Source: Eledone cirrhosa (taxonomy: Eukaryota). From it: a stretch of 64,000 bases of DNA. Where the stretch lies: the NCBI GenBank assembly GCA_964016885.1, contig OZ024748.1:54498001-54562000 (forward strand), read 5' to 3'. Each line of letters starts with the position of its first letter. Position 1 is the first letter of the stretch. Position numbers and translations under genes: made by a program. This document shows, piece by piece, positions 25,947 to 63,299 of this stretch. A model generated the notes under the pieces. That model made no database searches and was not told the origin of the DNA. It saw only the letters and a program-made list of their open reading frames with translations.

Positions 25947-27530
25947 ATCATCATCATCTTCGTTTAACGTCCATTTTCCACGCTAGCATGGGTTAGACGG
26001 GAGTTGTCCCACTTGAGGCAATGATTGGTCGGGTGACCATGTCTCGCTCATATAGGACTATCTGGCAGGTTTTCTACGGTTGGATGCCCTTCCTCACACC
26101 AACAATATTTACAGTGTGGAACTGGGAACTTTTTACCGTGTTACCTACACGACCACATTACAGCGTGGACTGTGTGTGTTTTTTTCTCGTGACACCTACA
26201 CGATCTCGATCTCATTTATTTCATTTATTTGGACTGGATGTTGTGGTACCAACTTTATAGAGAGAGGGTGGTGTTGGTGGGAGTGGGAGGATAGGGTAGG
26301 GGTAGTGGATTGGGGTGTATATTTGGTTAAGAGGTGCCTACTGGCTGTAGCTTTCGCTTTGTACATAGGCAAGGCGGGTCTTCTGTATTACTGCGGAGTG
26401 CCAAAGATCTCGGTCCAGTGACATTGTCTTAGAGAGGTGCAAGTGTGTAAGGTCGGAATTTATCAGATCGTCCCAGGTTTTTCTGGGTCTACCTACTCCG
26501 TAACTACCATCAATTTTGATCGCCCTGCACTTTTTTATACAGCTGTCGTCTTTCATGCGCATCACGTGGCCATACCAACGTAGTCTTCTCTCGAGTAAAC
26601 AGCATCTGATCCCTCTTATTCCTAATTTCTCACTTAGTTCATTTATGCTTTGCCGTTCACGTATATTACTATTACACATCCAACGGAGCATGCATGCTTC
26701 GTTCCTTTCCAGTCTACGCAGGTCCTCTGCACGCAATGCCCATGTCTCACTGCCATGTAGCATTGCTGATCGTATACAAGCATCATACAATCTGCCTTTC
26801 ATTTTTAGAGAGAAACCTTTTGTGGCCAACAGCGGTATAAGCTACTGTACTTTCAGAACACCCTCCACCACTGCTGATTTCGTCACCCAGGTAACAGAAA
26901 GTGTCTACTATTTCTATAGAACCATCTGGGCAATAGAAGGGGCTAGTATCATGTGGACACTTGCTACCTATTGCACCTGAGCATCGGCCACATATAAAGT
27001 CTACGTTCTTAGATAGTTTACCTGTGATCCCTCTACATCTTTTATGTACCCATACTTTGCATTTGGGACATAAAATTGAATTTCTGCCTACTCCTTTCCT
27101 ACACACTGAGCAAGGCCATTTCCCTGAGGGTACCTGTGCCTCATTTTCCTTTCTACAAACTAGGACTTTAGTCTTAGACAAGTTAACTTTAAGACCTTTT
27201 GATTCTAGGCCATGCTTCCATGTTTCGAATTTCTTTTCTAGTTCATCCATTGATTCAGCTATGAGCGTTAGATCATCTGCGTATAGGAGTCCCCATGGGC
27301 AGCCAGTCTTGAACTCATCTGTTATAGCCTGAAGGGCAATAATAAATAGGAGGGGGCTAAGGACAGCCTTGGTGAACACCAACTTTTACACTAAATTCTT
27401 CACAATATTCATTGTTAATTCTAACCTTACTGACTGTTTCATTATACATAGCTTGCATAGCTCTTACAAGCCATTCATCTACACCTAGTTTTCTAAGAGC
27501 CCACCAGATAATGGAGCGGGGGACTCTGAT
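25947..27530 (-). mobile_element. 5'-truncated RTE-clade LINE (RT pseudogene with PHD insertion)
   Basis: RVPRSIIWWALRKLGV..GVHQG..LSPLLF..LYADDL..FCYLG..MLHGSETW..RLRWYGHVMR..GRPRKTW across three ORFs with two frameshifts; 3' end next to (ATC)n. Confidence 0.93.
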
Positions 27531-27911
27531 ACATGTATATCCGTGTATGTGTATATATGCATATAGGTGTATGTATACATATGTGTATATGTATGTGTAT
27601 ATATATATATATTTATACATATATATATAGGTATAGATATATATATGTGTGTATATATATGAATACATTCACTTGCATGTACACAAATCACATATATGTG
27701 CATATATATATATATGCACATATGTGGCAGAAAGCAACACACACACATACACATCACACACACACATGTCCTTTGATAAAATGTCTGCTTAATCATAAGT
27801 GACTAGTCGCTGAAATAATTCTTGCAAGAACCACCTTAACAATAACAGCAACATATATCTTTGATTAGCACGGCATTGCCAGTAGTTGAATATGAATTTC
27901 AGGTTCATTAT

Positions 27912-28097
27912 TTGGTGGATTGGCAGTATCGGTAGAGGCTCGGGCGCCATGCTTTGACGCATAGTTACGGCCCTTGCCATTCTGAGTTCAAATCCCGCCG
28001 AGGTTAACTTTGCCTTTCATCCTTACGGGGTCGATAAAATAAAGTACCAGTAATACACTGGGATAATTGCTGGCCTTGTACCAAAAGTAGAAACAAT
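27912..28097 (+). mobile_element. SINE-A, young copy
   Basis: Near-identical to 19921-20106. Confidence 0.9.
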
Positions 28098-28118
28098 TAT
28101 TTGGTCTAGATTAGAAAT

Positions 28119-28860
28119 GCTGGGGAGAATGTCTCTCGAAGATAGCACCCGAAGACTGCTGGGGAGAATGTCTCTCGAAGATAGCACCCGAAGACTGCTG
28201 GGGAGAATGTCTCTCGAAGATAGCACTCGAAGACTGCTGGGGAGAATGTCTCTCGAAGATAGCACCCGAAGACTGCTGGGGAGAATGTCTCTCGAAGATA
28301 GCACCCGAAGACTGCTGGGGAGAATGTCTCTCGAAGATAGCACTCGAAGACTGTTGGAGAGAATGTCTCTCGAAGATAGCACCCGAAGACTGCTGGGGAG
28401 AATGTCTCTCGAAGATAGCACCCGAAGACTGCTGGGGAGAATGTCTCTCGAAGATAGCACCCGAAGACTGCTGGGGAGAATGTCTCTCGAAGATAGGACC
28501 CGAAGACTGCTGGGGAGAATGTCTCTCGAAGATAGCACCCGAAGACTGTTGGGGAGAATGTCTCTCGAAGATAGCACCCGAAGACTGCTGGGGAGAATGT
28601 CTCTCGAAGATAGCACCCGAAGACTGCAGGGGGAAAGTCTCTCGAAGATAGCACCCGAAGACTGCAGGGGAGAAAGTCTCTCGAAGATAGCACCCGAAGA
28701 TTGCTGGAGAGACTGTTGCTCGATACATTATCGTAGTGTTCTGATACCACCCAAAGACTGATAGAGAAGATGTCCCTCGATACATTATCGTAATACTCTA
28801 ATACGACCCGAAGACTGATAGAGAGAACTTCACTCGAAATATTAATCTAGTGTTCTACCA
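28119..28860. repeat. 39-bp minisatellite (~15 copies) trailing into longer degenerate units
   Basis: gctggggagaatgtctctcgaagatagcacccgaagact. Confidence 0.95.
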
Positions 28861-29044
28861 TATTGAACATCGACGACAATGAATATTAGTTCGAAATAAA
28901 ACTTTGAATTATATTTCTTTTCAAATCTTTCCAGATATAAATTTGCATGGCATTCGTAGAGGCAAGGTCGGCGCTACCATTGCGACAACTCAGCAGTCGC
29001 CTATCACACATATCTCAGGTGTTTTACGGAAAATTAAAGGATCA

Positions 29045-30237
29045 GAGTTTGAACTCAGACCGTAAAGGGACGTAACTATGCTGGAAAGCATGGCGTCCGA
29101 CCCTCTACCGATACTGCCAATGATTTCTGATATAGGCACAAGACCAGCAATTTTATACAAATTTCTATAATTAACTTAAATATATAATTTCCTAAGATCA
29201 ACAGATTAATATCATCAAGGTGTTGGATTAGCAATATCGGTAGAGCGTCAAACAACAAGCCTTGTGGCATAAAGTTGCGTCCCTTTACTTTCTGAGTTCA
29301 AATACCGCAGAGTTTAGCTTTGTCTTTCATCCCTACATGGTCGATAAAATATAGTACCAGTACCGCTCTGGTCGATTTAATCGACTTTCCCCTCCCCCAA
29401 AATTGCTGGTCTTGCGCCAAAAGTAGAAACAATTATTATTATGGTCGGTGGATTGATAGTATCGATAGAGCGTCAGACACCATACTTTGCAGCATAGTTA
29501 TGGCCCTTTACGTTCTGAGTTCAAATCCTTTGCCTTTCATCCTTACATGGTTGATAAAATAAAGTACCAGTAATGCACTGGGATAACTGCGGGCTTTGTT
29601 CCTAAATCCGGAACCATTATCATTAAGGCGGTGACTTAGCAAAAAAAAAAAAAAAAAAGTCGTTAGAGCGTTGGGGAAAATGTGTTGTGGGATTTATTTA
29701 CGGCCCTTTATGCTCTAAGTTCAGATCCACAGAGGTTAACTTTTCCTTTCATCTTTCCGGGGTGGATAAATATAGTACCACTTTGGACTTCTATCAAAGG
29801 TTTGAAACTCGCTATAAAAATGAGGGCATATCTTGGTAGAGACGAACAATCAGAGCAGTTCGTCCTGAATCTATTAATGCTTGGGGATGGAACACTTCCT
29901 GCAGATAGAAGGGAGTTATTGATACAAGGCCCATAGTACCAGTTACGTACTGGTATCGATACAATCGATTTTCCACTCTTCAAGTTGTTGGCTTTGTGCC
30001 AAATGTAGAAACATTTATTACAGGGTGGTAGATTGGAAGTGTCGGTAGAGCGTCGGACAAATTGCATTGCGACGTATATTTACGGTTCTTTACGTTCTCA
30101 GTTCAAATCCTGTCGCGGTTAGGTTTACATGTCTTTACGAGGTCGATAAAATAAAGTACCAGTAATGCATTGGGTTCGATTTGGTCGACTTCCCCTTCCC
30201 TTCAAATTACTGGCCTTGCGCTAAATATAGAAACAAT
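29045..30237 (+). mobile_element. Cluster of ~6 SINE-A copies (first on -, the rest + head to tail)
   Basis: Repeated ggattgg..tcggtagagcgtc..gttcaaat..taaagtaccag..agaaac. Confidence 0.8.
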
Positions 30238-30496
30238 TATTATTTTTGGTATTAGGATCTATTTTGATCTATTTTTCTGTTTTTTTTTATGAACGTGTAT
30301 ACTTAATAGCGTCCCCCACACAAATACACAACCAATTTGAGGGCAAATCACCTCATTCCCCATATTATCAATTTGATATGCAAATAGCTAATTTAACGTT
30401 TCACCAATCATGCATTGCCATGAAAAAGAGAAGGGTGAGACCGTCTTTTCACAAGAATAAAGAAGCTGTTACCCCCGCACATGTCTATAGCAGTTA

Positions 30497-31025
30497 CTCT
30501 CTATCTCTCTCTCTCACTCTCTCTCTCTCTCTCTCTCACTCTCACTCTCTCTCTCTCTCTCTCTCACTCTCTCTCTCACTCTCTCTCTCACTCTCTCTCT
30601 CACTCTCACTCTCTCTCTCACTCTCTCTCTCACTCTCTCTCTCACTCTCTCTCTCACTCTCTCTCTCTCACTCTCTCTCACTCTCTCTCACTCTCTCTTT
30701 CACTCTCTCTCTCACTCTCTCTTTCACTCTCTCTCTCTCTCTCTTTCACTCACTCACTCACTCTCTCTCTCACTCACTCACTCTCTCTCACTCACTCTCT
30801 CTCTCTCTCTTTCACTCGCTCACTCTCTCACTCTCTCTCTCTCTCTCACTCACTCTCTCTCTCTCTCTCACTCACTCTCTCTCTCTCTCTCTTTCACTCA
30901 CTCTCTCTCTCTCTTTCACTCACTCTCTCTCTCTCTTTCACTCACTCCTCTCTCTCTCTCACTCACTCACTCTCTCTCTTTCACTCACTCACTCTCTCTC
31001 TCTTTCACTCACTTCACTCACTCTC
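30497..31025. repeat. (CT)n/(CTCA)n microsatellite
   Basis: Read directly. Confidence 0.97.
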
Positions 31026-31225
31026 NNNNNNNNNNNNNNNNNNNNNNNNNNNNNNNNNNNNNNNNNNNNNNNNNNNNNNNNNNNNNNNNNNNNNNNNNNN
31101 NNNNNNNNNNNNNNNNNNNNNNNNNNNNNNNNNNNNNNNNNNNNNNNNNNNNNNNNNNNNNNNNNNNNNNNNNNNNNNNNNNNNNNNNNNNNNNNNNNNN
31201 NNNNNNNNNNNNNNNNNNNNNNNNN
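31026..31225. other. Assembly gap (200 N)
   Basis: Run of N. Confidence 1.
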
Positions 31226-34200
31226 GATGGGGTGAAGGGTTAGTGGGTATTCGATACAGTTGATGGGGGGTGACGGGTTAGTGGGTTTGATACAGTTGAT
31301 GGGGGTGACGGGTTAGTGGGTTTGATACTGTTGATGGGGGTGACGGGTAAGTGGGTTTGATCTGTTGATGGGGGTGACGGGTTAGTGGGTTTGATACAGT
31401 TGATGGGGGTGACGGGTTAGTGGGTTTGATACAGTTGATGGGGGTGACGGGTTAGTGGGTTTGATACAGTTGATGGGGGTGACGGGTTAGTGGGTTTGAT
31501 ACTGTTGATGGGGGTGAAGGGTTAGTGGGTTTGATACAGTTGATGGGGGTGACGGGTTAGTGGGTTTGATACAGTTGATGGGGGGTGACGGGTTAGTGGG
31601 TTTGATACTGTTGATGGGGGTGACGGGTTAGTGGGTTTGATACAGTTGATGGGGGTGACGGGTTAGTGGGTTTGATACAGTTGATGGGGGTGACGGGTTA
31701 GTGGGTTTGATACAGTTGATGGGGGTGACGGGTTAGTGGGTTTGATACTGTTGATGGGGGTGACGGGTTAGTGGGTTTGATACAGTTGATGGGGGTGACG
31801 GGTTAGTGGGTTTGATACAGTTGATGGGGGTGACGGGTTAGTGGGTTTGATACAGTTGATGGGGGTGACGGGTTAGTGGGTTTGATACTGTTGATGGGGG
31901 TGACGGGTTAGTGGTTTGATACAGTTGATGGGGGTGACGGGTTAGTGGGTTTGATACAGTTGATGGGGGTGACGGGTTAGTGGGTTTGATACTGTTGATG
32001 GGGGTGACGGGTTAGTGGGTTTGATACTGTTGATGGGGGTGACGGGTTAGTGGGTTTGATACAGTTGATGGGGGTGACGGGTTAGTGGGTTTGATACAGT
32101 TGATGGGGGTGACGGGTTAGTGGGTTTGATACAGTTGATGGGGGTGACGGGTTAGTGGGTTTGATACTGTTGATGGGGGTGACGGGTTAGTGGGTTTGAT
32201 ACTGTTGATGGGGGTGACGGGTTAGTGGGTTTGATACTGTTGATGGGGGTGACGGGTTAGTGGGTTTGATACAGTTGATGGGGGTGACGGGTTAGTGGGT
32301 TTGATACTGTTGATGGGGGTGACGGGTTAGTGGGTTTGATACAGTTGATGGGGGTGACGGGTTAGTGGGTTTGATACAGTTGATGGGGGTGACGGGTTAG
32401 TGGGTTTGATACTGTTGATGGGGGTGACGGGTTAGTGGGTTTGATACTGTTGATGGGGGTGACGGGTTAGTGGGTTTGATACAGTTGATGGGGGTGACGG
32501 GTTAGTGGGTTTGATACAGTTGATGGGGGTGACGGGTTAGTGGGTTTGATACAGTTGATGGGGGTGACGGGTTAGTGGGTTTGATACTGTTGATGGGGGT
32601 GACGGTTAGTGGGTTTGATACAGTTGATGGGGGTGACGGGTTAGTGGGTTTGATACAGTTGATGGGGGTGACGGGTTAGTGGGTTTGATACTGTTGATGG
32701 GGGTGACGGGTTAGTGGGTTTGATACAGTTGATGGGGGTGACGGGTTAGTGGGTTTGATACAGTTGATGGGGTGACGGGTTAGTGGGTTTGATACTGTTG
32801 ATGGGGGTGACGGGTTAGTGGGTTTGATACTGTTGATGGGGGTGACGGGTTAGTGGGTTTGATACTGTTGATGGGGGTGACGGGTTAGTGGGTTTGATAC
32901 AGTTGATGGGGGTGACGGGTTAGTGGGTTTGATACAGTTGATGGGGGTGACGGGTTAGTGGGTTTGATACAGTTGATGGGGGTGACGGGTTAGTGGGTTT
33001 GATACTGTTGATGGGGGTGAAGGGTTAGTGGGTTTGATACAGTTGATGGGGGTGACGGGTTAGTGGGTTTGATACAGTTGATGGGGGTGACGGGTTAGTG
33101 GGTTTGATACTGTTGATGGGGGTGACGGGTTAGTGGGTTTGATACAGTTGATGGGGGTGACGGGTTAGTGGGTTTGATACAGTTGATGGGGGTGACGGGT
33201 TAGTGGGTTTGATACAGTTGATGGGGGTGACGGGTTAGTGGGTTTGATACTGTTGATGGGGGTGAAGGGTTAGTGGGTTTGATACAGTTGATGGGGGTGA
33301 CGGGTTAGTGGGTTTGATACAGTTGATGGGGGTGACGGGTTAGTGGGTTTGATACAGTTGATGGGGGTGACGGGTTAGTGGGTTTGATACTGTTGATGGG
33401 GGTGAAGGGTTAGTGGGTTTGATACAGTTGATGGGGGTGACGGGTTAGTGGGTTTGATACAGTTGATGGGGGTGACGGGTTAGTGGGTTTGATACTGTTG
33501 ATGGGGGTGACGGGTTAGTGGGTTTGATACTGTTGATGGGGGTGAAGGGTTAGTGGGTTTGATACAGTTGATGGGGGTGACGGGTTAGTGGGTTTGATAC
33601 TGTTGATGGGGGTGACGGGTTAGTGGGTTTGATACAGTTGATGGGGGTGACGGGTTAGTGGGTTTGATACTGTTGATGGGGGTGACGGGTTAGTGGGTTT
33701 GATACAGTTGATGGGGGTGACGGGTTAGTGGGTTTGATACAGTTGATGGGGGTGACGGGTTAGTGGGTTTGATACTGTTGATGGGGGTGACGGGTTAGTG
33801 GGTTTGATACTGTTGATGGGGGTGAAGGGTTAGTGGGTTTGATACTGTTGATGGGGGTGACGGTTAGTGGGTTTGATACTGTTGATGGGGGTGACGGGTT
33901 AGTGGGTTTGATACAGTTGATGGGGGTGAAGGGTTAGTGGGTTTGATACAGTTGATGGGGGTGACGGGTTAGTGGGTTTGATACAGTTGATGGGGGTGAC
34001 GGGTTAGTGGGTTTGATACTGTTGATGGGGGTGACGGGTTAGTGGGTTTGATACAGTTGATGGGGGTGACGGGTTAGTGGGTTTGATACAGTTGATGGGG
34101 GTGACGGGTTAGTGGGTTTGATACTGTTGATGGGGGTGACGGGTTAGTGGGTTTGATACTGTTGATGGGGGTGAAGGGTTAGTGGGTTTGATACTGTTGA

Positions 34201-37200
34201 TGGGGGTGAAGGGTTAGTGGGTTTGATACTGTTGATGGGGGTGAAGGGTTAGTGGGTTTGATACTGTTGATGGGGGTGACGGGTTAGTGGGTTTGATACT
34301 GTTGATGGGGGTGACGGGTTAGTGGGTTTGATACTGTTGATGGGGGTGACGGGTTAGTGGGTTTGATACTGTTGATGGGGGTGAAGGGTTAGTGGGTTTG
34401 ATACAGTTGATGGGGGTGACGGGTTAGTGGGTTTGATACAGTTGATGGGGGTGACGGGTTAGTGGGTTTGATACTGTTGATGGGGGTGAAGGGTTAGTGG
34501 GTTTGATACTGTTGATGGGGGTGACGGGTTAGTGGGTTTGATACAGTTGATGGGGGTGACGGGTTAGTGGGTTTGATACTGTTGATGGGGGTGACGGGTT
34601 AGTGGGTTTGATACTGTTGATGGGGGTGAAGGGTTAGTGGGTTTGATACTGTTGATGGGGGTGACGGGTTAGTGGGTTTGATACTGTTGATGGGGGTGAC
34701 GGGTTAGTGGGTTTGATACTGTTGATGGGGGTGACGGGTTAGTGGGTTTGATCCTGTTGATGGGGGTGACGGGTTAGTGGGTTTGATACAGTTGATGGGG
34801 GTGAAGGGTTAGTGGGTTTGATACTGTTGATGGGGGTGAAGGGTTAGTGGGTTGATACTGTTGATGGGGGTGACGGGTTAGTGGGTTTGATACAGTTGAT
34901 GGGGGTGACGGGTTAGTGGGTTTGATACTGTTGATGGGGGTGACGGGTTAGTGGGTTTGATACTGTTGATGGGGGTGAAGGGTTAGTGGGTTTGATACTG
35001 TTGATGGGGGTGAAGGGTTAGTGGGTTTGATACTGTTGATGGGGGTGAAGGGTTAGTGGGTTTGATACTGTTGATGGGGGTGACGGGTTAGTGGGTTTGA
35101 TACTGTTGATGGGGGTGACGGGTTAGTGGGTTTGATACTGTTGATGGGGGTGACGGGTTAGTGGGTTTGATACTGTTGATGGGGGTGAAGGGTTAGTGGG
35201 TTTGATACTGTTGATGGGGGTGACGGGTTAGTGGGTTTGATACAGTTGATGGGGGTGACGGGTTAGTGGGTTTGATACTGTTGATGGGGGTGACGGGTTA
35301 GTGGGTTTGATACTGTTGATGGGGGTGAAGGGTTAGTGGGTTTGATACTGTTGATGGGGGTGAAGGGTTAGTGGGTTTGATACTGTTGATGGGGGTGAAG
35401 GGTTAGTGGGTTTGATACTGTTGATGGGGGTGACGGGTTAGTGGGTTTGATACTGTTGATGGGGGTGACGGGTTAGTGGGTTTGATACAGTTGATGGGGG
35501 TGACGGGTTAGTGGGTTTGATACTGTTGATGGGGGTGACGGGTTAGTGGGTTTGATACTGTTGATGGGGGTGAAGGGTTAGTGGGTTTGATACTGTTGAT
35601 GGGGGTGACGGGTTAGTGGGTTTGATACTGTTGATGGGGGTGACGGGTTAGTGGGTTTGATACTGTTGATGGGGGTGACGGGTTAGTGGGTTTGATACTG
35701 TTGATGGGGGTGAAGGGTTAGTGGGTTTGATACTGTTGATGGGGGTGAAGGGTTAGTGGGTTTGATACTGTTGATGGGGTGACGGGTTAGTGGGTTTGAT
35801 ACTGTTGATGGGGGTGAAGGGTTAGTGGGTTTGATACAGTTGATGGGGGTGACGGGTTAGTGGGTTTGATACTGTTGATGGGGTGAAGGGTTAGTGGGTT
35901 TGATACTGTTGATGGGGGTGAAGGGTTAGTGGGTTTGATACTGTTGATGGGGGTGACGGGTTAGTGGGTTTGATACTGTTGATGGGGGTGACGGGTTAGT
36001 GGGTTTGATACTGTTGATGGGGGTGACGGGTTAGTGGGTTTGATACTGTTGATGGGGGTGACGGGTTAGTGGGTTTGATACTGTTGATGGGGGTGACGGG
36101 TTAGTGGGTTTGATACTGTTGATGGGGGTGACGGGTTAGTGGGTTTGATACTGTTGATGGGGGTGACGGGTTAGTGGGTTTGATACAGTTGATGGGGGTG
36201 ACGGGTTAGTGGGTTTGATACAGTTGATGGGGGTGACGGGTTAGTGGGTTTGATACAGTTGATGGGGGTGACGGGTTAGTGGGTTTGATACTGTTGATGG
36301 GGGTGACGGGTTAGTGGGTTTGATACTGTTGATGGGGGTGACGGGTTAGTGGGTTTGATACTGTTGATGGGGGTGACGGGTTAGTGGGTTTGATACAGTT
36401 GATGGGGGTGACGGGTTAGTGGGTTTGATACTGTTGATGGGGGTGACGGGTTAGTGGGTTTGATACTGTTGATGGGGGTGACGGGTTAGTGGGTTTGATA
36501 CTGTTGATGGGGGTGACGGGTTAGTGGGTTTGATACTGTTGATGGGGGTGAAGGGTTAGTGGGTTTGATACTGTTGATGGGGGTGAAGGGTTAGTGGGTT
36601 TGATACAGTTGATGGGGGTGACGGGTTAGTGGGTTTGATACTGTTGATGGGGGTGACGGGTTAGTGGGTTTGATACTGTTGATGGGGGTGACGGGTTAGT
36701 GGGTTTGATACTGTTGATGGGGGTGACGGGTTAGTGGGTTTGATACTGTTGATGGGGGTGACGGGTTAGTGGGTTTGATACTGTTGATGGGGGTGACGGG
36801 TAGTGGGTTGATACTGTTGATGGGGGTGACGGGTTAGTGGGTTTGATACTGTTGATGGGGGTGACGGGTTAGTGGGTTTGATACTGTTGATGGGGGTGAC
36901 GGGTTAGTGGGTTTGATACTGTTGATGGGGGTGACGGGTTAGTGGGTTTGATACAGTTGATGGGGTGACGGGTTAGTGGGTTTGATACAGTTGATGGGGG
37001 TGACGGGTTAGTGGGTTTGATACAGTTGATGGGGGTGACGGGTTAGTGGGTTTGATACTGTTGATGGGGGTGACGGGTTAGTGGTTTTGATACTGTTGAT
37101 GGGGGTGACGGGTTAGTGGGTTTGATACTGTTGATGGGGGTGACGGGTTAGTGGGTTTGATACAGTTGATGGGGGTGACGGGTTAGTGGGTTTGATACTG

Positions 37201-39354
37201 TTGATGGGGGTGACGGGTTAGTGGGTTTGATACTGTTGATGGGGGTGACGGGTTAGTGGGTTTGATACAGTTGATGGGGGTGACGGGTTAGTGGGTTTGA
37301 TACTGTTGATGGGGGTGACGGGTTAGTGGGTTTGATACAGTTGATGGGGGTGACGGGTTAGTGGGTTTGATACTGTTGATGGGGGTGACGGGTTAGTGGG
37401 TTTGATACAGTTGATGGGGGTGACGGGTTAGTGGGTTTGATACAGTTGATGGGGGTGACGGGTTAGTGGTTTGATACTGTTGATGGGGGTGACGGGTTAG
37501 TGGGTTTGATACTGTTGATGGGGGTGACGGGTTAGTGGGTTTGATACTGTTGATGGGGGTGACGGGTTAGTGGGTTTGATACAGTTGATGGGGGTGACGG
37601 GTTAGTGGGTTTGATACAGTTGATGGGGGTGACGGGTTAGTGGGTTTGATACAGTTGATGGGGGTGACGGGTTAGTGGGTTTGATACGGTTGATGGGGGT
37701 GACGGGTTAGTGGGTTTGATACTGTTGATGGGGGTGACGGGTTAGTGGGTTTGATACTGTTGATGGGGGTGACGGGTTAGTGGGTTTGATACAGTTGATG
37801 GGGGTGACGGGTTAGTGGGTTTGATACAGTTGATGGGGGTGACGGGTTAGTGGGTTTGATACTGTTGATGGGGTGACGGGTTAGTGGGTTTGATACTGTT
37901 GATGGGGGTGACGGGTTAGTGGGTTTGATACTGTTGATGGGGGTGACGGGTTAGTGGGTTTGATACTGTTGATGGGGGTGACGGGTTAGTGGGTTTGATA
38001 CTGTTGATGGGGGTGACGGGTTAGTGGGTTTGATACTGTTGATGGGGGTGACGGGTTAGTGGGTTTGATACTGTTGATGGGGGTGACGGGTTAGTGGGTT
38101 TGATACAGTTGATGGGGGTGACGGGTTAGTGGGTTTGATACAGTTGATGGGGGTGACGGGTTAGTGGGTTTGATACTGTTGATGGGGGTGACGGGTTAGT
38201 GGGTTTGATACTGTTGATGGGGGTGACGGGTTAGTGGGTTTGATACTGTTGATGGGTGTGACGGGTTAGTGGGTTTGATACTGTTGATGGGGGTGACGGG
38301 TTAGTGGGTTTGATACTGTTGATGGGGGTGACGGGTTAGTGGGTTTGATACTGTTGATGGGGGTGACGGGTTAGTGGGTTTGATACTGTTGATGGGGGTG
38401 ACGGGTTAGTGGGTTTGTTACTGTTGATGGGGGTGACGGGTTAGTGGGTTTGATACAGTTGATGGGGGTGACGGGTTAGTGGGTTTGATACTGTTGATGG
38501 GGGTGACGGGTTAGTGGGTTTGATACAGTTGATGGGGGTGACGGGTTAGTGGGTTTGATACTGTTGATGGGGGTGACGGGTTAGTGGGTTTGATACTGTT
38601 GATGGGGGTGACGGGTTAGTGGGTTTGATACTGTTGATGGGGGTGACGGGTTAGTGGGTTTGATACTGTTGATGGGGGTGACGGGTTAGTGGGTTTGATA
38701 CTGTTGATGGGGGTGACGGGTTAGTGGGTTTGATACTGTTGATGGGGGTGACGGGTTAGTGGGTTTGATACTGTTGATGGGGGTGACGGGTTAGTGGGTT
38801 TGATACTGTTGATGGGGGTGACGGGTTAGTGGGTTTGATACAGTTGATGGGGGTGACGGGTTAGTGGGTTTGATACTGTTGATGGGGGTGACGGGTTAGT
38901 GGGTTTGATACAGTTGATGGGGGTGACGGGTTAGTGGGTTTGATACTGTTGATGGGGGTGACGGGTTAGTGGGTTTGATACTGTTGATGGGGGTGACGGG
39001 TTAGTGGGTTTGATACAGTTGATGGGGGTGACGGGTTAGTGGGTTTGATACTGTTGATGGGGGTGACGGGTTAGGGGGTTTGATACAGTTGATGGGGGTG
39101 ACGGGTTAGTGGGTTTGATACAGTTGATGGGGGTGACGGGTTAGTGGGTTTGATACTGTTGATGGGGGTGACGGGTTAGTGGGTTTGATACTGTTGATGG
39201 GGGTGACGGGTTAGTGGGTTTGATACTGTTGATGGGGGTGACGGGTTAGTGGGTTTGATACAGTTGATGGGGGTGACGGGTTAGTGGGTTTGATACTGTT
39301 GATGGGGGTGACGGGTTAGTGGGTTTGATACTGTTGATGGGGGTGACGGGTTAG
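31226..39354. repeat. 35-bp G-rich satellite (gatgggggtga[c/a]gggttagtgggtttgatac[a/t]gtt), ~230 copies
   Basis: Read directly; very homogeneous. Confidence 0.99.
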
Positions 39355-40167
39355 CCAGCTGGGCCACACCCACCGCCAGTGCTCGGTGAGGTTTCGGAAA
39401 ATTCTGGATGAGGAGTCTAATCAGCAAGAATACTCAGACGGGGATTCAAAATAAGCATACCTCCATAAATTTGTAAAGTAGTGGGGCAGGGCTCTCCAGT
39501 GTCCGCACCCCACTCCTATCATGGCGACAGACCCGAGGCGGACATGGATGGAGTTGCTGGTTCTTATGTCCAGAAGTCGCTGTATTAAGTAATGGTCGCA
39601 TTGGCAGAGAGAAAGAGGAGTTTTAGCTTAGTTGTGTAAAAGACAGCGAAAGCAATGTTGTGCAGAACAGCCAGCGATAGCCGCTACCTCACCCTTTCCA
39701 CCTAACGGTGTTCATTCTTCAGGTGGGATGACCTTCTTTAGATTTTGTGGAAGAAAACGGCAGTCCAGGAACTGAAGACACCGGGTGTTTCGATGACACC
39801 ACCAACCAATCGATGAAACCATGCTACGTTGCCAACACCGTCACTCGTCAGTTCCATCACAGCAACGTGTAGAACTCTAGGTGTCTGCTGTCTCCAGGGG
39901 ACAAAATGGACAAAGCGTTATCCCGGGGAGAACATTTAAGACAGACAGGTAGGTAGATGTATCTGCTATCGAGTTGGCGTATAGAGACGGTTCAGTCACA
40001 CAGAATTGTCCAATAAATGTTTAAATAAATTTGGATCAGCTCGAGCTAAAGGAGTTGCCTCCCTTGCAATCTTCTTTTTATCTGATCACATCTGAAGGAA
40101 GTTTCAATCTTGAAATTACAAGGAGAGTCTCGGTTGGTTGAAATATTTACACACACACAGTGCGAGA

Positions 40168-41800: not shown

Positions 41801-41914
41801 CGTTTATGTATAAAATCCTGACACACTAGTATTTGGTGCTCTCACACGAGTAATGAGGTAGCTGTAACAACATACAATACCCAGAGCGAGACTTATCTAT
41901 GATACATAAACATA

Positions 41915-42125
41915 GAGCGGTGTATTGGCAGTATCGGTAGAGCGTCGGACACCATGCTTTGCAGCATAGAGTTACGGCTCCTTACGGTCTGTGTTCAAAT
42001 CCCGCCGAGGTTAACTTTACCTTTCATCATTTACGCGCTCGATAAACTAAAGCACCAGTAACTTACTGGGGTCGATTTAATCGCCCCCCCCCCCCAATTA
42101 CTGGCCTTGTGCCTATACTAGAAAT
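41915..42125 (+). mobile_element. SINE-A
   Basis: Matches the consensus. Confidence 0.85.
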
Positions 42126-42201
42126 CATTATACATATTGCACACGTTTCCTTTGCGACTTTATTATGATTCACACAGTGTTCGTGTTACTGTTTATATAT
42201 A

Positions 42202-42248
<47 letters not shown>

Positions 42249-42249
42249 A

Positions 42250-42442
42250 TTGTTTCTACTCTTGGCACAGGGCCAGCAATTATCCCAGTGTATTACTGGT
42301 ACTTTATTTTATCGACCCCCCCCCCCGTAAGGATGAAAGGCAAAGTTAACCTCGGCGGGATTTGAACTCAGAATGGCAAAGGCCGTAACTCTATACGTCA
42401 AAGTATGGCGTCCGACCCTCTCCCAATACTGCCAATCCACCA
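42250..42442 (-). mobile_element. SINE-A, young copy
   Basis: Reverse complement matches the consensus. Confidence 0.9.
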
Positions 42443-42444
42443 AT

Positions 42445-42650
42445 GATGATAATAATAGTAATAAACGAAAGATAAAAGTTTATAACATCACTATTTATTT
42501 CATTATATACATCTCATATGTATTTTGTTTGAAGAAGGCATACTCTGATTTATGTTAAACATAAATGTTTGCATCCCCGGAATATATATAATGAAATAAA
42601 TAGTGATGTTATAAAGTTATATCTTTCGTTTATTGCTATTATCATCATAA
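42445..42650. repeat. ~80-bp inverted repeat around a degenerate PLE hammerhead-like spacer
   Basis: aataaacgaaagata..tataacatcactatttatttcattatata / tatataatgaaataaatagtgatgttata..tatctttcgtttatt; spacer ttgaagaaggcata..tatgttaaac. Confidence 0.6.
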
Positions 42651-42739
42651 TACCCCAGATAAGTTTTATCAGTCGAGTACTTCGTATCAGTTATAAACAT
42701 AACTCAGTTGATTACATGTCAACGAAGTTTTTAACTCAT

Positions 42740-48020: not shown

Positions 48021-48161
48021 ACGCAGTCCAGAATTAGCCGTCGAAACGGCTTGAGCTCAGCTGTCGGGGTCTTACTGGTTCCTATTACCCACTCTACTAC
48101 CTCAAGTATTGAGTACTTTGGTGCGTTATGGTCCACCTGGTTCCTTACCACATTTCCTTCG

Positions 48162-48162: not shown

Positions 48163-48208
<46 letters not shown>

Positions 48209-48215
<7 letters not shown>

Positions 48216-48496
48216 ATACTTGGGAAGGGTCATATTTGTGTATAATAATATTACCAGAATTAATAACAGAACACACTCACTGTTTGTTTGGTTTTCGCTT
48301 CTGTGTCTTTTATATCGGTTAATTTAATTTATTCGGTCCTCAATGTTACCATTGACTGACCAATGGTCAAAAATACAGATACAGTATAGACACAAACACA
48401 TATACATGTGACAAATATGACCCAAATATGACCCTCCCCAAGTATAACAATATTTGTTTCGACACACGATTTCATATCAAAAACCTCGCAAAACTA
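48209..48496. mobile_element. PLE-type element of the 12658-13647 family
   Basis: ~200 bp matching the left arm of 12701, then an inverted ~30-bp terminus plus tail (tttcgacacacgatttcatat..cctcgcaaaacta). Confidence 0.75.
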
Positions 48497-52313: not shown

Positions 52314-52880
52314 GGGTATCAAAAAATAAATATGGTATTTATAGGTCTCTACAAGTGGTAGGAGAGGGTGGCGAGTGGGCTGGGTGTAGGTCATTGGTTG
52401 ATAGAAAAGGGAATTCATTAAAAGCTAATTCTACAAAGCTATAGTTTATTTTTATTTTTATTAATTTTTGTTTTTAGAGTAACAAAAGCAGACAGAATTC
52501 TATAAACAGGTTCCGGATGGCATACCATTCCTTGTCATTAAGTTTCTCTTAAGCTAACAGATGTCTATAAGATCAGTGGGGGGTGGTCAGTCATGGTCGA
52601 TAGAATTAAAGGAAAGGGAGATTCTTTAAAAGCTAAATTCATTAAGGTTCTACTAAGTGACAAAGGTTTAGAGAATTCTGTAGACAGATTCAAAATACTG
52701 AGTGCATATCTTACAATTATCTTCGAACTTCTCTTAAACTAATCAACTATATGCCAAAAATCAACAGACACATTCACAAAAAAACACACTCACTCACACA
52801 CTCGCGCGCAACCATAAACGCACATACACATACACATATACACACATAAAAGCACACACACATATATATACATATATATA

Positions 52881-53245
52881 GGAGTAAGTAAGACCCCGAC
52901 GGCTGAGCTCAAGCCGTTTCGACGGCTAATTCTGTACTGAATGAAAAATCAGTTCTGGTATTTAAATAGCCGAACTTGTCAAGGGGCAATTCCATATATG
53001 GTCAAAGAGATAATCACCAGGATTGGTCATCCCACAAGGTAGTAGTAATTCAGCGATGGCAAGTTGGTGGGGGAGGTAGCCAAACCTGCCAGTAGGAGAA
53101 AAGGGGAGAGGGGGCGGAGTAGACCCATTGATGCGTTGGTGGTGCCAGCTACAGCTGGGTGTGAGGTAAAAGAGGAGGCGGAGGAGGGGGAGGAGGTCAA
53201 TACGGTAAGTAGAACGATGAAAATGTAAAACTGTAAATGTAAAAC

Positions 53246-56012: not shown

Positions 56013-56075
56013 ATATATGTGTATTATATTTTATGTATATATATATATATATATGTGTATATATATATATATATA

Positions 56076-56263
56076 TTGTTTCTACTTTTGACACAAGGCC
56101 AGCAATTATCCCAGTGTATTACTGGTACTTTATTTTATCGACCCCCTAAGGATGAAAGGCAAAGTTAACCTCGGCGGGATTTGAACTCAGACCATAAAGG
56201 GCCGTAACTCTTTGCTGCAAAGCATGGCGTCCGACCCTCTACCGATACTACCAATCCACCGCC
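56076..56263 (-). mobile_element. SINE-A, young copy
   Basis: Reverse complement matches the consensus. Confidence 0.9.
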
Positions 56264-60562
<4,299 letters not shown>

Positions 60563-60879: not shown

Positions 60880-61297
60880 CATCATCATCACCTTCATCAT
60901 CGACGTTTTTCGTCCGTATTTCAAGACTTGCAGGAGTTGGAGTGGTCTTTTCCAGTACAGGTTATCTCCCTTTGCCGCTTTCCTTCCCGTTGCCTTCATC
61001 TCCCTGTGAAGTTTAGTATTTTTGGATTAGTTCTCATCACCCGTGCCCAGATCTTCCTTGATTTCTTCTATTGCAATTTCCTACCATTGGGATATCTTCG
61101 CACTTCTTTACTCCACGATCAGCTTCCATACGCATCGCATGTTCATACCAGCGCACCCCACTCACTTACATGCTACATCTGATTACTCTTACACCCAGTT
61201 TTTCAGTTATTTTTTTCTCAACTCATCCAAGCTTTGCCTTCAGGTACATTAACATTAGACACCCATCGGAACGCCCTTGCTTCATTCCTCTTCAGGC
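60880..61297 (-). mobile_element. Old RTE LINE 3' fragment
   Basis: LKRNEARAFRWVSN..KLGVRVIRC..RWYEHAMRM..VKKC, homologous to 26338-26829; (ATC)n tail. Confidence 0.75.
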
Positions 61298-61533
61298 CCC
61301 CCCCCCCCCCCCCCCACACACAAACACAAACACAAACACACACACACACACACATATATATATACATATATACATATATACACATATATACATATATAAG
61401 CAGAAGGGATATTTAATTTGTTGGAAATTCAACAAATATAAATGTTTATAACTGATTCAGAGCACTCGACCGTTTCTGGAGTAAATATTCAATGATATTA
61501 AATAAATGGAAACTATATTTATAAAACCATATT

Positions 61534-61595
61534 TATTCTATTATATATATTTCAAGGGTACCAAAAACTTTGGTACGCTTTCATCAGATAAAATA
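61534..61595 (-). ncRNA. Mirror hammerhead ribozyme
   Basis: Exact reverse complement of 61720-61781. Confidence 0.8.
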
Positions 61596-61719
61596 CAAAA
61601 TGTGTTTTATAAATTTTGACATAGCCAAGAAACATATCTTATCAGTTGAATTATCCAAGGAAAATTCAACTGATAAGGTATGTTTCTTGGCTATGTCAAA
61701 ATTTATAAAACACATTTTG

Positions 61720-61781
61720 TATTTTATCTGATGAAAGCGTACCAAAGTTTTTGGTACCCTTGAAATATATATAATAGAATA
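61720..61781 (+). ncRNA. Minimal type-I hammerhead ribozyme
   Basis: tattttat CTGATGA aagcgtaccaaa gtt tttggtaccctt GAAA t atat a TA| atagaata: 8-bp stem I, 11 of 12 pairs in stem II, palindromic stem III. Confidence 0.8.
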
Positions 61782-61852
61782 AATATGGTTTTATAAATAT
61801 AGTTTCCATTTATTTAATATCATTGTGTGTGTATATATATATATATATATAT

Positions 61853-61981
61853 AATCAGATATGGTGTGCTAAGATACCAAGTGGACCATAACGCACCAGG
61901 GTACTTGATACTTACTGCTGCCTTAGTTCGGATATAGCTGTCGAAATGGCCGAAGCTCAGCCGTCGGGGTCCTGACTCTTT

Positions 61982-61986
<5 letters not shown>
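61853..61986. mobile_element. P-Q family mini-element (inverted form, diverged)
   Basis: gtggaccataacgcacca..gtact..atactta, then tagctgtcgaaatggc..gctcagccgtcggggtc; (TA)n on both sides. Confidence 0.7.
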
Positions 61987-62042
<56 letters not shown>

Positions 62043-62581
62043 TGAAAAATGGCGAGCTGTGTTGTTGCAAATAGGATATATATAAAAATGAAGAATTAGA
62101 AATAGAAGCCAGGACTATCTGTCATCAGTGGTCTACTAGCCCTTATAGATATTTCTTCGCATTGCGGACCATATACTTCAGGCTAGGGCGATGCAATAAC
62201 TAAATTAAGTTATTGGGATAAAAAGAGTTGGGTGGAGAAAGAGAGACAGGTAAAGAGAGGAAAAAATGAGAAAAATCAAGTCAATAATTCATGTTGAACA
62301 TAAGAACGTGCGAATATTGACGAGAAAACGAAAGACACATCTTGGCCGTGCGAATGTGAGCGAGGAAAGAATTTCGTACAGTGTGGGACGATGGAGGAAG
62401 TGAGAGAGAGGGTGAGTAGCAGAGTGAGTGAGTGAAAGTGTGAAGAAGAGGCTAGCCGAGAGAGAGAGTGACTAGCAGAGGGGGTGAGTGAAAGTGAGGG
62501 GGAGGAGAGAGAAGGGGGAGAGAGAAAAAGGATAGCAGTTTATATATATTTATACATGTATGTATATATATATATATATAT

Positions 62582-62701
62582 GTGGTAAGGAACCAGGTGG
62601 ACCATAACGCACCAAAGTACTCAATACTTAGGGTAGTAGAGTGGGTACAGAATTAGCCGTCGAAACGGCTTGAGCTCAGCCGTCGGGGTCTTACTTGTTC
62701 C
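62582..62701. mobile_element. P-Q family mini-element (inverted form)
   Basis: Q (62582-62647) joined to P (62645-62701) through a gta overlap; TA flanks. Confidence 0.75.
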
Positions 62702-63299
62702 TATATATACAGTATATATATTGCCGAGGTTATAGGGAATATTCACTATACACCCCGTTTACTCACAATTACTCTGAGGTATGGTTTGAACGTGTATCGA
62801 GCAAAACTTGTCTTTGAGAGCTAACCAAGTGTGTATAGAGAGAAATTCTCATAAACACACATGCACACACATACATGCACATATTCATGTACCTGGACAT
62901 ACATACATGCATATATGATACATTCATCCTTTTATATACACACATACATATATCATACATTCACACACACACACACACACACGATAATTTTTGCATAGAC
63001 TCTAGATGTCTGTGATATAGGTTACTTTACTTATTCAAGAAAATTTGGGAAAATGACAAAACATATACCACACATACACACCTGTATATATACGTACATA
63101 TATATATATATATACACATACATACTCAGACACATATATACATACATATTCATACAGACACACATGTATATATACGTACATACATACACATGGATGCTTG
63201 CATACATACATGCATATATACTCACAGACACACGTATATATATATATGCATACAAACACACATATACATACACACACACAGACACACGAGTATATATAC

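What the first reader, a model, noticed from the sequence alone, without database searches (positions are those of the whole stretch)
61400..61825. 336-bp DNA palindrome encoding two outward-facing hammerhead ribozymes
Seen: arms 61490-61656 and 61659-61825 pair with about two mismatches. Each holds a complete CUGAUGA / 12-bp stem II / GAAA / UAUAUA palindromic stem III / 8-bp stem I hammerhead, with predicted cleavage after 61773 (+) and at the mirror site on the minus strand. Known: PLE minimal hammerheads with a palindromic stem III are thought to act as dimers. Inference: a read-through transcript from either strand can fold as the ribozyme or as a long dsRNA hairpin that masks it, so it may be a self-silencing or siRNA source. 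The copy at 4212-4345 has the tail and terminus but no palindrome.
Basis: partly seen in the sequence, partly recalled or inferred. Interest (0 to 1): 0.72.

Follow-up and report, generated by a model that had tools for sequence, protein, structure and literature searches.

The report
Head-to-head Penelope ends with hammerheads
This DNA palindrome is real: two back-to-back copies of the end of a very abundant repeat, each with a predicted self-cutting RNA motif, likely left by one insertion of a Penelope-type jumping gene, a layout already described for such elements and so ordinary in kind.

Summary
Palindrome confirmed: 61490-61825, 165 of 168 pairs match. Each arm holds a type I hammerhead with an intact core; stem II is 11 bp with a C.C mismatch, not 12. 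The left arm alone carries a 90-nt extension (61400-61489), and both ends abut microsatellite. This is the published layout of Penelope-like element (PLE) insertions: an inverted 5'-truncated copy plus a one-sided tail (PMC3846280, PMC8557442); paired opposite-strand hammerheads are in print too (PMC4209133). Public runs show a very abundant family with other head-to-head joints; six more insertions of this layout lie in the window. Likely mechanism (inferred): both strands of cut DNA prime reverse transcription at two neighbouring RNA sites and the copies join head to head. The proposed switch is not supported: in read-through RNA the hairpin wins by 84 kcal/mol, and one transcript holds only one sense ribozyme. 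No PLE protein was found in the window, Rfam gave no hammerhead hit, and no listed read spans this exact junction. One lead: partner copies at other loci start at the same place, so the centre may mark the RNA's 5' end. The scan noted the same layout before, in this genome and others.

The parts
61400..61489 (-). One-sided 3' extension ('tail', about 90 nt) of the left copy; outer end abuts a TA/CA microsatellite
   Evidence: Contiguous with the arm end in family contigs (table 8, table 8); homologous to 4212-4301 and 42652-42738
61458..61482 (-). Small bulged hairpin just behind the first terminus, of the kind seen in published Hydra-clade consensus ends
   Evidence: Pattern scan (pattern fitted after seeing the sequences), alignment A1, by-eye comparison with File S7 of PMC8557442
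61490..61652 (-). Left copy: 163 nt of element end, 3' end pointing outward
61534..61595 (-). Predicted type I hammerhead, minus strand; predicted cut at 61542
61647..61663 (.). Head-to-head junction at a short self-complementary patch that belongs to the right copy; candidate 5' end of the template RNA
   Evidence: joints and loose ends at other loci start at 61652-61659
61652..61825 (+). Right copy: 174 nt of element end without tail; outer end abuts (TG)n(TA)n
61720..61781 (+). Predicted type I hammerhead, plus strand: stem I 8 bp, stem II 3+8 bp with C.C mismatch, palindromic stem III, predicted cut after 61773
4212..4345 (.). Same family: whole tail joined head to head to the last 44 nt of the end, abutting without overlap, in (TA)n
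42443..42738 (.). Older relative with the same layout (long arm with decayed hammerhead, short inverted arm, one tail)

Best explanation
The palindrome is two head-to-head copies of the end of an abundant repeat, likely the pseudo-LTR of a Penelope-like retroelement (probably Hydra clade), and was likely made in one insertion in which both strands of cut (TA)n DNA primed reverse transcription. Shown: two 163-nt arms with 3' ends outward, one with a 90-nt tail, both ends at microsatellite, an abundant family whose depth falls from the terminus towards the centre, and other head-to-head joints at other positions. Inferred: one cDNA began at the tail end and one at the inner terminus, as the two neighbouring start sites shown in vitro for the anole element PAc (PMC11167929); both ran about 165-175 nt and were joined through a short self-complementary patch. 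The hammerheads are passengers of the element end. In a read-through transcript of this copy they are predicted to be masked by the hairpin; any dsRNA would be a by-product.
For: Layout equals the published PLE layout: inverted 5'-truncated copy, tail on one end (PMC3846280 passages; PMC8557442 passages). Penelope-13_HM is listed with an inverted 5' copy and the same hammerhead on both strands (supplement); opposite-strand hammerhead pairs 100-700 bp apart are reported (PMC4209133); ours are 141 nt apart. Family is abundant: 27,516-35,352 reads laid out of 12.5-12.8 million read in each of three RAD runs; summed contig depth 3.6 million at 61516-26 against 2,394 at 61648-58 (run X2; not a copy number). 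All 15 listed skips table 5 (21 more not shown) join a left-arm piece to a right-arm piece, i.e. other head-to-head loci, one of them in another organism (X6). Loose ends put (TA)n directly at the inner terminus (X1, X5). Both arms share alleles that are a minority in the family (61538, 61600, 61602), so both come from one source. Six more insertions in the window have this layout; at 4212-4345 and 62580-62705 the tail piece and the inverted end piece abut without overlap, as two-site priming on one RNA predicts. A sister subfamily keeps stem II with three swapped pairs and the same C.C mismatch (by eye from a loose-end consensus).
Against: No PLE reverse transcriptase or GIY-YIG domain next to it or among 103 screened frames of the window (the only reverse transcriptase hit lies 34 kb away and is followed by a PHD finger), so the family is tied to PLEs by anatomy only. 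Tail is about 90 nt against 30-40 nt in print. Rfam gave no hammerhead hit; the G10.1-C11.1 pair of published minimal PLE hammerheads is A-U here. No listed contig or read spans this exact junction. No target-site duplication can be read in the microsatellite flanks. The strand-change joints in raw reads do not give direction and some may be library chimeras.
Confidence: 0.72

Rival explanations
1. Same element, but the second arm arose by fold-back self-priming of a single strand at the small central hairpin, as proposed for rotifer Penelope elements.
For: The junction sits on a short hairpin and the minus strand reads exactly as a snap-back product would (sequence); 4 of 15 listed joints are symmetric within 2 nt, one in the stem II loop; PMC3846280 argues for self-priming.
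Against: Fold-back alone cannot supply a tail on one arm only, nor the abutting, non-overlapping copies at 4212-4345 and 62580-62705; 11 of 15 listed joints are not symmetric. The two routes can combine.
Confidence: 0.17
2. A selected regulatory locus: a hairpin RNA gene that makes small RNAs against the family or toggles between ribozyme and dsRNA.
For: A read-through RNA folds as a near-perfect 165-bp hairpin, about -260 to -270 kcal/mol; Penelope families are small-RNA targets in rotifers (PMC3846280).
Against: No toggle: 84 kcal/mol gap. The arms differ at 1 of 163 positions, so the copy looks young, and the layout recurs at many loci, so no selection is needed to explain it.
Confidence: 0.04
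3. A non-LTR retrozyme (tandem hammerhead repeat with a circular RNA) or a MITE-like DNA hairpin element.
For: Type I hammerhead, no ORF; retrozymes are proposed to derive from pLTRs (bioRxiv 10.64898/2026.07.22.740005, abstract and introduction).
Against: No head-to-tail repeat here; copies contain the uncut ribozyme in mid-sequence and are 5'-truncated at varied points; the ends are unequal (tail on one side), unlike terminal inverted repeats. Two 'goes back' joints are only 30 and 52 nt long.
Confidence: 0.04
4. Assembly or library fold-back artefact.
For: No listed read or contig spans this junction.
Against: The mirror stops exactly at the family's terminus, the flanks differ (tail left, microsatellite right), one arm carries a private change (61637), and the same layout occurs in independent short-read data and in older, decayed copies.
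Confidence: 0.03

Closest known systems
EN+ Penelope-like insertions with inverted pLTR and one-sided tail (Adineta vaga Pen2a etc., PMC3846280; Fig. 2 legend of PMC8557442)
   Same: Head-to-head 5'-truncated copies, palindrome at the junction, tail on one end, hammerhead in the pLTR.
   Different: No ORF between the ends; arms nearly equal and almost without spacer; tail about 90 nt rather than 30-40.
Hydra-clade PLEs, e.g. Penelope-13_HM, Hydra-2_Amil, Hydra-2_Ajap (PMC8557442 section 11 and Files S1, S2, S7)
   Same: (TA)n targets, hammerhead 50-150 nt before the 3' end, a similar bulged hairpin behind the first terminus (by eye), and in Penelope-13_HM the same hammerhead on both strands.
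   Different: Listed Hydra hammerheads have 3-7 bp stem II and an AC...GU stem III; this one has 11 bp with a C.C mismatch and an all-AU stem III. By eye its end does not match Hydra-1_Obim, and a 15-nt motif of it is absent from the supplement. No protein is available to place it.
Minimal PLE hammerheads (Cervera and de la Pena 2014, PMC4209133)
   Same: Type I, long stem II, palindromic stem III expected to work as a dimer; opposite-strand pairs 100-700 bp apart already reported.
   Different: No bulged base at 9.1 and A-U in place of G10.1-C11.1; activity untested here (low in vitro for the published ones).
Poseidon_Ac (PAc) internal two-site initiation (PMC11167929)
   Same: Two termini separated by a tail; AT-rich targets; uncut hammerhead carried into the DNA copy.
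   Different: Shown in vitro for another clade; here only the genomic footprint is seen.

Membership tests
Type I hammerhead ribozyme | Core CUGAnGA ... GAAA ... NUH with stems I and II | tested here: met
   stem I pair probabilities 0.59-0.72, stem II 0.91-1.0 in a single arm
Type I hammerhead ribozyme | Stable stem III, or palindromic stem III for dimer pairing | tested here: met
   8-nt self-complementary stretch, duplex only -3.2 kcal/mol; needs a second RNA
Type I hammerhead ribozyme | Match to an Rfam hammerhead model | tested here: not met
Type I hammerhead ribozyme | Self-cleavage at the predicted site | not testable with these tools
   needs in vitro transcription
Minimal PLE hammerhead (PMC4209133) | Bulged base at 9.1 and G10.1-C11.1 pair | tested here: not met
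   A-U pair directly after the core; a G at 10.1 occurs in part of the family (61580 T>C, 428 of 1471 plus-mate reads in X12)
EN+ Penelope-like element | ORF with telomerase-like RT and GIY-YIG endonuclease | tested here: inconclusive
EN+ Penelope-like element | Inverted 5'-truncated copy at the 5' end | tested here: met
EN+ Penelope-like element | Tail extension on one end only (30-40 bp in print) | tested here: met
   one-sided, but about 90 nt long
EN+ Penelope-like element | Hammerhead in the pLTR near the 3' end, and 5' truncation of copies | tested here: met
   cut site 52 nt before the terminus; depth falls from terminus to centre
EN+ Penelope-like element | Target-site duplication | tested here: inconclusive
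   both flanks are microsatellite
Hydra clade | Protein motifs (RWK, DKT, CxCX5C, no CCHH) | not testable with these tools
   no coding sequence of this family was obtained
Hydra clade | Insertion into (TA)n | tested here: met
   (table 7); shared with Naiad and others, so not diagnostic
Non-LTR retrozyme | Head-to-tail tandem units each with a hammerhead | tested here: not met
   single head-to-head pair at this locus; family-wide arrays not tested

The most novel reading that the evidence does not exclude
The palindrome is a fossil of two run-off ('strong-stop'-like) cDNAs: both strands of the cut target primed on the same short RNA, each copy ran to the RNA's 5' end, and the centre of the palindrome (about 61647-61652) therefore marks the element's transcription start. 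This would give a general rule for how PLEs make head-to-head ends and ORF-less pLTR copies, and predicts the 5' end of the RNA to within a few bases. The conserved C.C mismatch in a long stem II would then mark a family-specific hammerhead contact.
Probability: 0.35. Interest if true: 0.5.

Novelty: new member of a known kind. Interest (0 to 1): 0.22.

Why it matters
As a kind of structure it is known. Its value is as one clean, young footprint for the open question of how Penelope-like elements integrate: it fits two-site, two-strand priming, and the clustering of partner starts at its centre makes a cheap prediction (where the RNA begins). It also warns against reading such palindromes as hairpin RNA genes.

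Tried and rejected
Rfam: nothing at gathering score; the weak miRNA matches at the centre reflect any long hairpin and were rejected. Two pattern scans of metagenome contigs found nothing. No RNA holder listed. Read ends piling at 61415, 61426, 61615, 61652 and 61663 in the RAD runs were rejected as biological: all 5 fall on AATT sites, i.e. likely restriction cuts; two of them flank the centre, so those reads cannot test the junction. Summed depths were not used as copy numbers. The first joint of the strand-change list (61395/61494) and the short ones near 61492-61506 were not interpreted, as direction is not given. Literature searches for a twin-priming or strong-stop model of PLE inverted ends returned no paper stating it, but they cover open-licence text only; the 2017 paper on PLE hammerheads cleaving as dimers is not in the library (only its title phrase in other papers) and is recalled, not read. 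Supplements of the bioRxiv retrozyme preprint were not seen and could list related families. Earlier scan notes by sequence and nearby place gave nothing.

Full report
Observation. The palindrome is there: 61490-61825, 165 of 168 pairs complementary, unpaired only at 61637/61678, 61653/61662 and the central AA. A strict pattern of my own gives these 2 sites in the window against a mean of 0.03 in 100 Markov controls. Rfam has no hammerhead hit, at gathering score or among 51 weak matches. That counts against a canonical hammerhead; the published PLE motifs were found with relaxed descriptors (PMC4209133, parts 1-2 of 4 read).

Anatomy. Read in the ribozyme's sense, the unit is: about 75 nt leader, hammerhead, 52 nt, first terminus, 90-nt tail, second terminus. 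The left copy (minus strand) has the tail; the right copy stops at the first terminus. Both outer ends touch TA-rich microsatellite. The central 10 nt are not a mutated mirror: other loci carry the same letters on the sense strand (loose end at 61457 in X4), so they belong to the right copy. The true arms are 163 nt with 1 difference, and at that position the left arm departs from the family (52 of 56 plus-mate reads in X12 have the other letter). Both arms share alleles that are a minority in the family (61538: 2769 of 3427 reads differ; 61600: 686 of 883; 61602: 621 of 867; X12 plus mates). So this is one young event from one source.

The family. I laid 8 of the 14 listed runs. In three RAD runs of one study 27,516, 30,823 and 35,352 reads fit the 306-nt stretch out of 12.5-12.8 million read, nearly all only in part and many from a sister subfamily. 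Summed contig depth peaks at the terminus (3.6 million) and falls to 2,394 at the centre (X2), while the unique flank has depth 3-6 (X1); the tool warns that these are not copy numbers, so I take only 'very abundant, 5'-truncated'. All 15 listed skips (21 more not shown) join a left-arm piece to a right-arm piece, which on this reference means head-to-head joints at other loci; 4 of 15 are symmetric within 2 nt, and one is from another organism (X6). Raw reads show strand-change joints too (10 of the 15 listed rows), without direction. A loose-end consensus of 5,410-10,930 reads shows a sister stem II in which, by eye, 12 of 14 pairs form, three pairs are swapped and the C.C at pair 4 is kept; the decayed copy at 42.5 kb keeps it too. 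This supports the structure at family level. No core position is among the 40 listed variant rows in either call, but 37 and 92 rows were not shown.

The window itself holds six more insertions with this layout: 4212-4345, 12646-13647 (arms 99.6% over 271 nt), 42443-42738, 48208-48496, 61865-61985 and 62580-62705. For the last two the native order was inferred from 48026-48153 and from loose ends at 61914; 61865-61985 rests on 75% likeness to 62580-62705. At 4212-4345 and 62580-62705 the tail piece ends at the first terminus and the inverted end piece follows without overlap. In the other long ones, including the finding, the tail-bearing copy ran on past the first terminus, which creates the inverted repeat.

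Mechanism. Shown in vitro for another PLE (PMC11167929, parts 1-2 of 4 read): the protein cuts and extends both strands of AT-rich DNA, starts reverse transcription at two neighbouring internal sites that bound the tail, and uses uncut RNA. Inferred here: each target strand primes at one site, the two cDNAs point inward and are joined head to head. Abutting copies follow when the outer cDNA stops at the inner site; palindromes follow when the upstream part is copied twice, from two RNAs or from one RNA by displacement (PLE enzymes lack RNase H; recalled). The published alternative is fold-back self-priming (PMC3846280, passages); the junction does sit on a small hairpin, but fold-back alone gives no one-sided tail.

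A read-through RNA folds at -270 (+) or -258 (-) kcal/mol; forcing the hammerhead costs 84 kcal/mol. Any one transcript has one sense ribozyme, in its second arm, so there is no dimer in cis and the antisense arm is waiting first. dsRNA from such a transcript could feed silencing as a by-product, as Penelope families are small-RNA targets in rotifers, but transcription of this copy is untested.

Comparison. Inverted 5'-truncated copies with a tail at one end are the stated norm (PMC8557442 passages and section 11; PMC8969392 passages). Opposite-strand hammerhead pairs 100-700 bp apart are reported in Schistosoma, and Penelope-13_HM is listed with an inverted copy and the same hammerhead on both strands (supplement part 2). 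It works like a PLE end. Membership is supported by anatomy but not by protein: no PLE domain among 103 screened frames of 60 aa or more (low-complexity frames left out). An 853-nt contig at depth 106 in X4 runs 748 nt upstream of the hammerhead region, so relatives are longer, but its letters were not shown. A bulged hairpin just behind the first terminus (4 matches in the window, 0.09 in controls, pattern fitted afterwards) resembles by eye the ends of Hydra-2_Amil, Hydra-2_Ajap and the start of Hydra-1_Ajap (supplement parts 52-53); an earlier scan note gave me this lead. Hydra clade is therefore probable, not shown. The host looks like an octopus from its repeats (recalled, not tested).

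One lead. Six other listed records start their right-hand copy at 61652-61659 with at most 7 unexplained letters where these are given: 61503/61652, 61572/61657 and 61550 (X1), a loose end at 61457 (X4), 61548/61654 and 61424/61659 (X2) (61505/61652 in X2 is probably the first of these again, as X1 and X2 are one sample). Few copies reach that far, so the clustering suggests a fixed 5' end of the template, and the equal arms would be two run-off copies. Against it: the reference holds no sequence upstream of 61652, which favours apparent clustering; letters between are unknown for one joint; one multi-copy contig has 68 unshown letters beyond 61650 (X4); only the best-supported rows are listed; I have no null. 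Searches found no open-licence paper with this model; an earlier scan note proposes a like idea for another family.

Artefact. No listed piece spans this junction, and RAD reads end at AATT sites on both sides of it, so the direct test is open. The mirror stopping at the family terminus, the unlike flanks and the private change in one arm argue for a real insertion.

Verdict. Real, correctly seen, ordinary in kind: a new member of a known class of insertion footprint. Interest 0.22; the run-off reading has probability about 0.35 and would deserve about 0.5.

Noticed in passing
window 12646-13647: Another family with the same layout: 271-nt inverted arms 99.6% identical, 405-nt spacer, 55-nt tail on the left only, CUGACGA...GAAA core with a 6-bp stem II in each arm; no clear stem I by eye. 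A shorter copy lies at 48208-48496 with the tail on the right.
   Followed up: partly
window 48026-48153, 52878-52939, 61865-61985, 62580-62705: A third short family in (TA)n, seen both in native order (end then tail) and as tail joined to an inverted end; carries the same bulged hairpin in its tail.
   Followed up: partly
window 61735-61761 and 42510-42570: C.C mismatch at the fourth pair of the long stem II is kept in three subfamilies while neighbouring pairs swap; possible tertiary contact.
   Followed up: partly
window 14758-15160: Old 400-nt imperfect palindrome (74%) next to (TA)n, with no hammerhead core in my scan; perhaps a decayed MITE.
   Followed up: no
window 26786-27385 (-): Reading frame with the end of a reverse transcriptase domain (Pfam RVT_1, E 1.5e-10) followed directly by a PHD finger (E 6.9e-07).
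   Followed up: no
window 31026-39500: A 200-N gap (31026-31225) followed by a 35-nt satellite of over 200 copies, 97-99% alike in its core.
   Followed up: no
window 3991-4114, 19895-20129, 21223-21583, 27912-28101, 29048-30247, 41894-42459, 56055-56282: A dispersed short repeat of about 200 nt in many copies, SINE-like (label recalled).
   Followed up: no
window 60950-61290 (-): Decayed coding remnant with many stops that resembles the 3' end of a LINE (recalled likeness), directly left of the microsatellite that holds the finding.
   Followed up: no
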